From the human T2T-CHM13v2.0 reference genome, Homo sapiens, in assembly GCF_009914755.1 (NCBI RefSeq), contig NC_060931.1: a stretch of DNA of 64,000 nt. One strand, given 5' to 3'. The position numbers were made by a program, and so were the translations under genes. Positions 50,208-55,763 of the stretch are shown piece by piece. The notes under the pieces are model-generated. The model saw nothing but the letters and a program-made list of their open reading frames with translations, ran no database searches and had not been told where the DNA came from. Position 1 is the stretch's first letter. Each line of letters opens with the position of its first letter.

Positions 50208-50260
50208 ATGGAAAATTCAGAAAGAGCTGAAGAAATGCAAGAAAATTATCAGAGAAATGG
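50208..50260 (+). CDS. ABCB5: ABCB5 first coding exon (exon 2; exon spans 50187-50260 with 21 nt of 5'UTR)
   Basis: Acceptor tttcAG at 50185-86; ATG at 50208; encodes MENSERAEEMQENYQRN(G), the N-terminus of full-length ABCB5; donor GG|gtaagc at 50261 (phase 2). Confidence 0.96.
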
Positions 50261-53478: not shown

Positions 53479-53533
53479 AACTGCAGAAGAACAGCCAAAA
53501 CTGAGAAAGGAAGCAGTTGGATCTATTGAGATA
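53479..53533 (+). CDS. ABCB5: ABCB5 exon 3 (55 nt); donor is non-canonical CT in this sequence
   Basis: Acceptor ttttccAG at 53477-78; encodes (G)TAEEQPKLRKEAVGSIEI in frame with exons 2 and 4; followed by ctaagtg instead of gtaagtg. Confidence 0.93.
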
Positions 53534-53778
53534 CTAAGTGAAATCAGTTAGAAAGTACATGCATTAGAAGATTTTAGAGACTTGTCAGTAGTGCATAGAA
53601 GATTGTGTTTATTAGATTGCATCCACTATTTGTGGGAAAGAGGGAACTAAAATAATTCATTAAAGTATGATTTTCGATAGAAAAAATATAAACAATCTCA
53701 AAATTTTACAATAAAGGATAGGGAAAAATAGCATAACATCCACATAATGACTCAGTGTTTTAAAAGTGTTTTTGGGGT

Positions 53779-53780
<2 letters not shown>

Positions 53781-53816
<36 letters not shown>
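53781..53816. repeat. (TG)n microsatellite in ABCB5 intron 3
   Basis: Read directly from the sequence. Confidence 0.95.
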
Positions 53817-53818
<2 letters not shown>

Positions 53819-54930
53819 CATACATAAATGTTACCAAAGGATATTTCTGAGTGGTGGGAAATTATCAGTGACTTTTACTATCTATGTTTACATTTCAGTA
53901 TATTCCAATGATTCTGCATTGTTATGTGTTGTTATTATTTTTATAGTGTTACAAATCCTTTTAAATCAAAAATAATTATCTAAGAATTTTTTAAAGCCTA
54001 TGTATCAGATAATGTGTCTGTACACTTCTTTGAAATCATGTTTAAGGAGCGTTTCATGCATGTGTTCCCAGACATGGTCTTCACCCACTCTAATCTCTGT
54101 GTCAGCCTGGCTGTCAATGTTATGTCCCTACAAATATACATGAAACAGCCTGCTTTTTCAAAAGTCAATTTAAAAAAAACTGAATAGTAGCAGAACATGA
54201 CAAACTTTATCAAGGAGATAACATTATTCTGGAGGAAGGTAGAGGAGCAGATACTCTCTTAATGTCCGTAATGCTGAATGCAATGCTGTGGAAGTAACAC
54301 TATAAATATTTATTAGCTATTGCAACGATGAATGGAAAAATAATATTTTGGTCTCCATTCATAAAATATGCAGTAAGTTCCTCTTGCTGTTATTAAAATC
54401 TAATTACATTTTAATACCATTTAAATTTTATTTTGGCCTCTCTCGGTAATATAAACAATCCATATTTTCAATTTTGCTCATGATTTGGTTTTGGACAGAT
54501 GCTATGGGGACCTACTACAGAATAGAATATAAAGCATTCAATAGATGGCTTTCAGGCATTTCTTTCTTATTCAAAACAGCCCTTAAAATTATCATTGACC
54601 CCCTTAAATATCCTTATTTACAGGATAGGCATTGTTCTGTGTAGAAAAAAAAATCTAAGGAATTTAAAATAATCACAAATATAATTCATTACATTTTTAC
54701 TAGTTAGCTCTGGTCACTGCACTTAGCCATGACATTGCCATGATGCCGGTGAGCCAGAGCGTTGAAAATGTGCAGATCAGCTTTCCATAAACTAAGATAT
54801 TGTTGTTGCAGTCTTCAGAATATCTTAACTTATTCCAAAATCAACCAAATGGAATAAAGTTTCTGATTCATACCCACATCTGACCTGACTTGTGTCAGGT
54901 ATCTACAATTTGTACTGATTTAGCTGCTTT

Positions 54931-55377: not shown

Positions 55378-55612
55378 CAGCTGCTTTGTTTTTTAATGCC
55401 TTTAAAGGAGATGGTAAATTCTTAATTTTGGTATTTGTTTTTACTTTAGATATAAATACATATCTATGATTTTATGCACTTATTTACCATCTTAATGTAT
55501 AAAGTCATGTTTACTAGGTGGCAAAGGCTGTAGGCTGTTGTGTGTGTGTGTGTGTGCTTGGTGTGTTTGTTTGTTTTACAGTTGTGGTGCTACCGTGCTT
55601 TGTTTTCCTCAG

Positions 55613-55763
55613 TTCCGCTTTGCTGATGGACTGGACATCACACTCATGATCCTGGGTATACTGGCATCACTGGTCAATGGAGCCTGCCTTCCTTTAATGC
55701 CACTGGTTTTAGGAGAAATGAGTGATAACCTTATTAGTGGATGTCTAGTCCAAACTAACACAA
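55613..55763 (+). CDS. ABCB5: ABCB5 exon 4 (151 nt), includes TM helix 1
   Basis: Acceptor ttttcctcAG at 55611-12; encodes FRFADGLDITLMILGILASLVNGACLPLMPLVLGEMSDNLISGCLVQTNT, homologous to the P-glycoprotein/ABCB1 TM1 region; donor A|gtgagt at 55764. Confidence 0.97.

What the first reader, a model, noticed from the sequence alone, without database searches (positions are those of the whole stretch)
53531..53551. ABCB5 exon-3 splice donor is CT, not GT: predicted loss-of-function allele of full-length ABCB5
Seen: the exon reads ...ATT GAG ATA|ctaagtg. Positions +2 to +6 (taagt) are perfect donor consensus but +1 (53534) is C, equivalent to c.108+1G>C. All other ABCB5 junctions here are GT-AG. 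Established: +1G is essentially invariant in U2 introns. Inferred: intron read-through stops after five codons (TAG at 53549-51). Skipping the 55-nt exon shifts the frame and stops at TGA 55647-49. So this haplotype probably cannot make the canonical full transporter, while isoforms starting further downstream would be unaffected. It may be a known human polymorphism; I cannot confirm an identifier.
Basis: partly seen in the sequence, partly recalled or inferred. Interest (0 to 1): 0.85.

Follow-up and report, generated by a model that had tools for sequence, protein, structure and literature searches.

The report
Known common ABCB5 splice-donor polymorphism
The odd CT splice donor after ABCB5 exon 3 is real, but it is the catalogued human polymorphism rs17143187, a very common allele that probably prevents the full-length testis and prostate form of this transporter from being made.

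Summary
ABCB5 exon 3 (53479-53533) is followed by CTAAGT, with C at 53534. It is the only non-GT donor among the gene's 27 donors in this assembly.

It is not new. It is dbSNP rs17143187, published as ABCB5 IVS3+1G>C on NM_001163941 at GRCh38 chr7:20626612, with reference G and alternative C, and labelled a splicing variant. The GRCh38 position lies on the window at the same offset as the three preceding SNPs.

The C allele is common. It was 281 of 590 chromosomes (47.6%) in a Hong Kong cohort, with 69 of 295 CC homozygotes. Summed loss-of-function allele frequency for ABCB5 in gnomAD populations is 0.12 to 0.53.

The assembly also carries the partner allele 784A (Gln262Lys, rs2074000) 19 kb downstream. 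This argues for a real haplotype, not an assembly error.

The rest of the full-length reading frame is intact at 1257 aa. Read-through, exon skipping and the best-scoring downstream GT sites all give early stops.

I found no RNA evidence for the allele in print, so loss of function remains a prediction.

The parts
50208..50260 (+). ABCB5 exon 2 coding part (ATG at 50208), c.1-53, donor TGG|gtaagc
53479..53533 (+). ABCB5 exon 3, 55 nt, c.54-108, ends on a codon boundary (Ile36)
   Evidence: Its peptide sits directly before the exon-4 homologue in 109 of 113 mammalian ABCB5 entries.
53534..53534 (+). C at intron 3 position +1: the alternative allele of rs17143187 (IVS3+1G>C, GRCh38 chr7:20626612)
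53531..53539 (+). Disabled donor ATA|ctaagt. Positions +2 to +6 match the donor consensus; +1 does not.
   Evidence: score 2.2 on a matrix built from the gene's own 26 GT donors (their range 3.7-12.3). It would score 7.9 with G.
53549..53551 (+). In-frame TAG met after five codons if intron 3 is retained or any donor further downstream is used
53538..53539 (+). Nearest downstream GT (TAA|gtgaaa). Using it adds 4 nt and shifts the frame.
   Evidence: It is not among the eight best-scoring GT sites.
55613..55763 (+). ABCB5 exon 4, c.109-259, acceptor ttttcctcag
55646..55649 (+). ATGA: the TGA that ends the shifted frame of an exon-3-skipped mRNA overlaps the in-frame ATG of Met48

Best explanation
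The window, from the T2T-CHM13 assembly, carries the C allele of the common human polymorphism rs17143187 (ABCB5 IVS3+1G>C, equal to c.108+1G>C) at 53534. The allele sits on a real haplotype that also carries rs2074000 784A (Gln262Lys). Shown: the base, its identity with the catalogued variant, its high population frequency, the linked allele, and an otherwise intact 1257-aa frame. Inferred: without G at +1, U1/U2-type splicing cannot use this donor. Transcripts from the upstream (full-length) promoter would therefore skip the 55-nt exon 3, retain intron 3 or use a poor downstream GT. Each of these gives a stop within exon 3's extension or in exon 4, and so decay of the mRNA or a peptide of 29 to 41 residues. 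The 812-aa beta isoform, made from a separate downstream promoter, is not touched. Carriers of two C alleles, about a quarter of the Hong Kong cohort, would thus lack canonical full-length ABCB5 with no evident severe effect.
For: Sequence. Identity: in Table 1 of PMC7521249, rs17143187 is IVS3+1G>C on NM_001163941, reference G, 'splicing variant'. Supplementary Table 1 places it at GRCh38 chr7:20626612. That position minus the window position is 20573078, the same as for the three SNPs before it. All 39 of 39 single-base sites of that table that I mapped onto this assembly show one of the two published alleles (10 of 10, 29 of 29). The eight 3'UTR SNPs and three of the four indels were not mapped. 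Frequency: GG 83, GC 143, CC 69 of 295 patients, so C is 281 of 590. The pilot gave 30% in 20 patients. Summed ABCB5 loss-of-function allele frequency is 0.12 AFR, 0.25 AJ, 0.53 EAS, 0.22 EUR, 0.39 FIN, 0.33 LAT and 0.30 SAS. The observed/expected loss-of-function ratio is 0.91 and pLI is 0. Haplotype: rs2074000 has nearly the same genotype counts (85/140/70), and this assembly has the A allele there, giving Lys262 where orang-utan has Gln. Consequences: read-through, exon skipping and the +4 GT all give early stops. The three best downstream GT sites (scores 5.6-5.8) lie beyond the TAG. Conservation: 109 of 113 mammalian ABCB5 entries keep the exon-3 peptide directly before the exon-4 homologue, 92 of them ending Ile-Glu-Ile, so the junction is used in other species. 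Separate promoters for the FL and beta forms, and FL expression in testis and prostate: review PMC11391348 (passages).
Against: No RNA data for the allele were seen. Four papers name rs17143187 and none of the passages read reports a splicing assay. The donor matrix rests on only 26 sites and is crude. MaxEntScan and SpliceAI were not available. The pilot frequency (30%) and the cohort frequency (48%) in the same paper differ. The cohort is of liver-cancer patients, and control genotypes for this SNP were not in the files I could read. The summed gnomAD figures cover all ABCB5 loss-of-function variants, so they are upper bounds for this one.
Confidence: 0.88

Rival explanations
1. The C is an error of the assembly and the donor genome really has G.
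For: None found. It is a single base, which is the commonest kind of assembly error.
Against: The base equals the published alternative allele of a very common SNP. The assembly also carries the alternative allele of rs2074000, which has nearly the same genotype distribution, 19 kb away.
Confidence: 0.02
2. The C allele is leaky. Some normal exon 3-exon 4 splicing persists through non-canonical CT-AG use, so carriers still make some full-length protein.
For: Positions +2 to +6 still match the donor consensus, so U1 could still pair with five intron bases. The high allele frequency shows only tolerance, which fits either view.
Against: From established knowledge (recalled, not tested here), +1G takes part in the chemistry of the first splicing step, and CT-AG introns are almost absent from human annotations. 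The site scores 2.2, below all 26 GT donors of the gene. ABCB5 tolerates loss of function in general (o/e 0.91), so no rescue is needed to explain the frequency.
Confidence: 0.05
3. The allele is rescued at the protein level in one of two ways. An exon-3-skipped mRNA re-initiates at Met48, whose ATG overlaps the stop of the shifted 29-codon frame (ATGA at 55646-55649). Or the in-exon GT at 53516 is used, removing six codons in frame.
For: The ATGA overlap and the 29-codon length of the upstream frame are in the sequence. A GT lies at 53516, 18 nt before the exon end.
Against: Met48 has a pyrimidine at -3. The product would lack residues 1-47, which end just before the first membrane helix. The GT at 53516 (GCA|gttgga) is not among the eight best-scoring GT sites. 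Nothing in the papers read reports such products.
Confidence: 0.05

Closest known systems
dbSNP rs17143187 (ABCB5 IVS3+1G>C), as reported in PMC7521249 and PMC6466653
   Same: Same gene, same intron, same +1 position, same G-to-C change, and a GRCh38 coordinate collinear with the window.
   Different: Nothing differs. The window is simply one haplotype that carries the alternative allele.
DPYD rs3918290 (splice-donor variant listed in PMC8549571)
   Same: It is also a +1 donor change in a drug-handling gene, listed as 'Splice donor'. From recall, it causes skipping of the preceding exon and loss of enzyme activity.
   Different: It is rare (at most 0.008 in the populations) and clinically important. 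The ABCB5 allele is near 48% in one cohort and has no established phenotype.
CYP3A5*3 rs776746 (listed in PMC8549571)
   Same: It is a splice-altering allele that is the majority allele in several populations (0.17 to 0.94), so many people lack the functional protein without disease.
   Different: From recall, it creates a cryptic site inside an intron and does not destroy a canonical +1 base. Its RNA effect has been shown; for rs17143187 I found no such data.

Membership tests
dbSNP rs17143187 alternative allele | Lies at position +1 of intron 3 of NM_001163941 | tested here: met
   Exon 3 ends at 53533, which is c.108. The paper numbers introns on NM_001163941.
dbSNP rs17143187 alternative allele | Alleles are G (reference) and C (alternative); the window has C | tested here: met
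dbSNP rs17143187 alternative allele | GRCh38 chr7:20626612 is collinear with window 53534 | tested here: met
   The offset is 20573078, identical to that of rs57228312, rs111872870 and rs75494098 upstream.
dbSNP rs17143187 alternative allele | Direct look-up in dbSNP or gnomAD, and alignment to GRCh38 | not testable with these tools
   No such database is held. Identity rests on the paper's tables.
Canonical U2-type GT-AG intron | GT at the 5' end | tested here: not met
   CT at 53534-53535
Canonical U2-type GT-AG intron | AG at the 3' end, preceded by a pyrimidine tract | tested here: met
   ctttgttttcctcag before 55613
GC-AG or U12-type (AT-AC) intron | GC or AT at the 5' end. U12 type also needs a donor of the form RTATCCTT (motif recalled). 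| tested here: not met
   The intron starts ctaagtga.
Loss-of-function allele of full-length ABCB5 | No normal exon 3-exon 4 junction in RNA of carriers | not testable with these tools
   No RNA data are held. No paper with such data was found.
Loss-of-function allele of full-length ABCB5 | All plausible aberrant products carry an early stop | tested here: met
   Read-through, exon skipping and the +4 GT do. The best downstream GT sites lie beyond the TAG. The one in-frame option, the GT at 53516, is not among the eight best-scoring GT sites.

The most novel reading that the evidence does not exclude
The C allele marks a loss of the ancestral full transporter that is under way in humans, while the beta half-transporter is kept. 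On this allele, exon-3-skipped mRNA might still yield a transporter lacking residues 1-47 by re-initiation at the ATGA stop-start overlap in exon 4. If so, the 'knockout' would be an N-terminal isoform switch. Only the sequence facts are shown here; the re-initiation is speculation.
Probability: 0.04. Interest if true: 0.45.

Novelty: already known. Interest (0 to 1): 0.12.

Why it matters
It matters little as a discovery. The variant has an rs number, appears in at least four papers and is counted among gnomAD loss-of-function variants.

Two practical points follow.

First, this reference assembly carries a predicted null allele of full-length ABCB5. Gene models or variant calls made against it will treat the defective donor as the reference state.

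Second, about a quarter of one East Asian cohort is homozygous for the allele (69 of 295). These people are natural candidates for asking what full-length ABCB5 does in testis and prostate. In the library searched I found no report that tested the RNA effect.

Tried and rejected

Paper searches:
- 'ABCB5' with 'splice' and 'loss-of-function' led to three papers that concern other ABCB5 SNPs, not this site.
- Moitra et al. 2011 (PMC3029322) has no passage on exon 3, intron 3 or this rs number.
- 'ABCB5' with 'CHM13' gave one unrelated paper.
- The search was set too loosely (any 2 of 6 terms). Its only ABCB5 hit is about expression in muscle.
- A search for c.108+1G and two guessed coordinates found nothing beyond the four papers already known.

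My first splice-junction routine placed several junctions wrongly and gave a false stop at residue 811. I replaced it with the anchored routine, whose exon map was then checked against 29 published SNP positions.

The donor matrix is built from only 26 sites. Of 566 GT dinucleotides in a 10-kb intron control, 29 reach a score of 5, so the 'best' cryptic sites (5.6-5.8) are no better than chance GTs.

The 92-aa protein P0001 is only an open frame read across exon 4 and its intron flanks, so I dropped it.

Full report
**What is in the sequence**

ABCB5 exon 3 (53479-53533) ends ...GAG ATA, and the intron begins ctaagt, so the base at +1 (53534) is C.

- The other four donors in the window are GT and the four acceptors are AG.
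- Exon 2 holds c.1-53 and exon 3 holds c.54-108, so the exon ends on a codon boundary and the site is c.108+1.
- Reading into the intron gives five codons and then TAG at 53549-53551.
- Leaving out the 55-nt exon shifts the frame and stops at TGA 55647-55649.
- Using the next GT (53538) adds 4 nt and also shifts the frame.

**What it is**

A search for ABCB5 with 'splice donor' led to PMC6466653, which names rs17143187 as a high-impact splice-donor variant of ABCB5 (passages). Four papers in the library hold that rs number.

PMC7521249 gives the details (sections 14 and 15 and the supplementary file read):
- All 28 exons and their boundaries were sequenced in Hong Kong liver-cancer patients.
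- rs17143187 is listed as IVS3+1G>C, 'Splicing variant', numbered on NM_001163941, with G as the reference-assembly allele.
- Its Supplementary Table 1 places the variant at GRCh38 chr7:20626612.

That coordinate minus the window coordinate is 20573078. The three SNPs before it (IVS1-33, IVS2+108, IVS2+135) give exactly the same offset. The offsets drift by only a few bases along the gene, as small indels would cause.

As a check on the mapping, I placed every single-base variant of that table outside the 3'UTR on this assembly. All 39 of 39 sites show one of the two published alleles (10 of 10, 29 of 29). The eight 3'UTR SNPs were not mapped. Of the four indels, I looked only at the context of IVS3-75_-74insTG, which falls in a TG run, and at 3042delT, which is absent because the frame is open.

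**How common it is**

- The pilot of 20 patients gave 30% C.
- The cohort tables give GG 83, GC 143, CC 69 of 295, so C is 281 of 590 chromosomes (47.6%) and 23% are CC homozygotes. A second table with 292 typed patients gives 279 of 584.
- These are patients. Control genotypes for this SNP were not in the files held.
- An independent survey of gnomAD (PMC7170817, supplementary sheet) gives summed loss-of-function allele frequencies for ABCB5: 0.12 AFR, 0.25 AJ, 0.53 EAS, 0.22 EUR, 0.39 FIN, 0.33 LAT and 0.30 SAS. These are orders of magnitude above those of most ABC genes. They are upper bounds for this one variant.
- The same paper's constraint table gives ABCB5 a loss-of-function observed/expected ratio of 0.91 and pLI 0.

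**Is the base real in this genome?**

I fetched the rest of the gene from the same assembly and mapped the exons against orang-utan ABCB5 (P0008).

- If spliced at the annotated junctions, the gene gives an open frame of 1257 aa with 37 differences from orang-utan.
- 26 of 27 donors are GT, and the acceptors of all 27 coding exons are AG.
- The donor change is therefore the only disabling lesion on this haplotype.
- The assembly also has A at c.784 (Lys262, where orang-utan has Gln). This is the alternative allele of rs2074000.
- In the Hong Kong cohort, rs2074000 has almost the same genotype counts as rs17143187 (85/140/70 against 83/143/69), which implies that the two travel together.

Finding both on one assembled haplotype, 19 kb apart, makes an assembly error very unlikely.

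**How it most likely works**

Shown:
- The donor lacks +1G.
- On a crude matrix built from the gene's own 26 GT donors it scores 2.2. Those donors range from 3.7 to 12.3. With G it would score 7.9, which is mid-range.
- The three best GT sites in the exon or the next 400 nt score 5.6-5.8, no better than 29 of 566 GT dinucleotides in a 10-kb intron control. All three lie beyond the in-frame TAG.

Inferred, from the established need for G at +1 in U2-type splicing (recalled):
- Transcripts from the full-length promoter skip exon 3 or retain intron sequence.
- They then meet an early stop and are degraded, or encode 29 to 41 residues.

Other species use this junction. Of 113 mammalian ABCB5 entries, 109 have the exon-3 peptide directly before the exon-4 homologue: 95 with at least 9 of 18 identities and 14 with 7 or 8. 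The remaining four are partial or divergent models. G is thus very probably ancestral, although no primate DNA was available to test this.

A review (PMC11391348, passages) states two things:
- The 1257-aa and 812-aa forms come from different promoters.
- The full-length form is found in testis and prostate.

The beta form should therefore be unaffected.

**What is not shown**

I found no RNA or protein data for the allele. The searches were made, and one search was poorly targeted. Supplements of bioRxiv preprints are closed, and GTEx tables are not held. The step from 'no +1G' to 'no full-length protein' therefore remains a prediction, though a strong one.

One oddity could soften that prediction. 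In an exon-3-skipped mRNA, the stop of the shifted 29-codon frame overlaps the in-frame ATG of Met48 (ATGA, 55646-55649). Re-initiation there is conceivable but unsupported.

**Verdict**

However, this is the known, very common polymorphism rs17143187 carried by the reference haplotype. Novelty: already known. Interest: low.

Noticed in passing
window 55646-55649: In an exon-3-skipped mRNA the shifted 29-codon frame ends at a TGA that overlaps the in-frame ATG of Met48 (ATGA). Re-initiation there would give a protein lacking residues 1-47.
   Followed up: partly
window about 55540-55560: A (TG)n run lies in intron 3 at the place where the published indel rs3033483 (IVS3-75_-74insTG) is located. 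The GRCh38-to-window offset changes by a few bases across this intron.
   Followed up: partly
L003 6352-6354 (window-style coordinate 78352-78354, outside the window): Residue 446 would be the first residue of the 812-aa beta isoform, by the arithmetic 1257-812+1. It is Met in this assembly but Thr in orang-utan P0008. The human SNP rs34603556 (1337T>C, Met to Thr) hits the same codon.
   Followed up: no
L002 2809-2815 (window-style coordinate 72809-72815, outside the window): The exon 8 donor AAG|gtcttt matches the consensus poorly at +3 to +6. The common SNP rs11983326 (IVS8+5T>G) lies in it, and this assembly has T.
   Followed up: no
L002 2790 (window-style coordinate 72790, outside the window): This assembly carries rs2074000 784A (Gln262Lys; SIFT score 0.00 in the paper's table), apparently on the same haplotype as the donor variant. 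Any published association of one SNP therefore cannot be separated from the other.
   Followed up: partly
window 53777-53860: A GT-rich run (gtgtgt...) lies in intron 3 a few hundred bases after exon 3. It supplies several of the 'cryptic donor' candidates.
   Followed up: no
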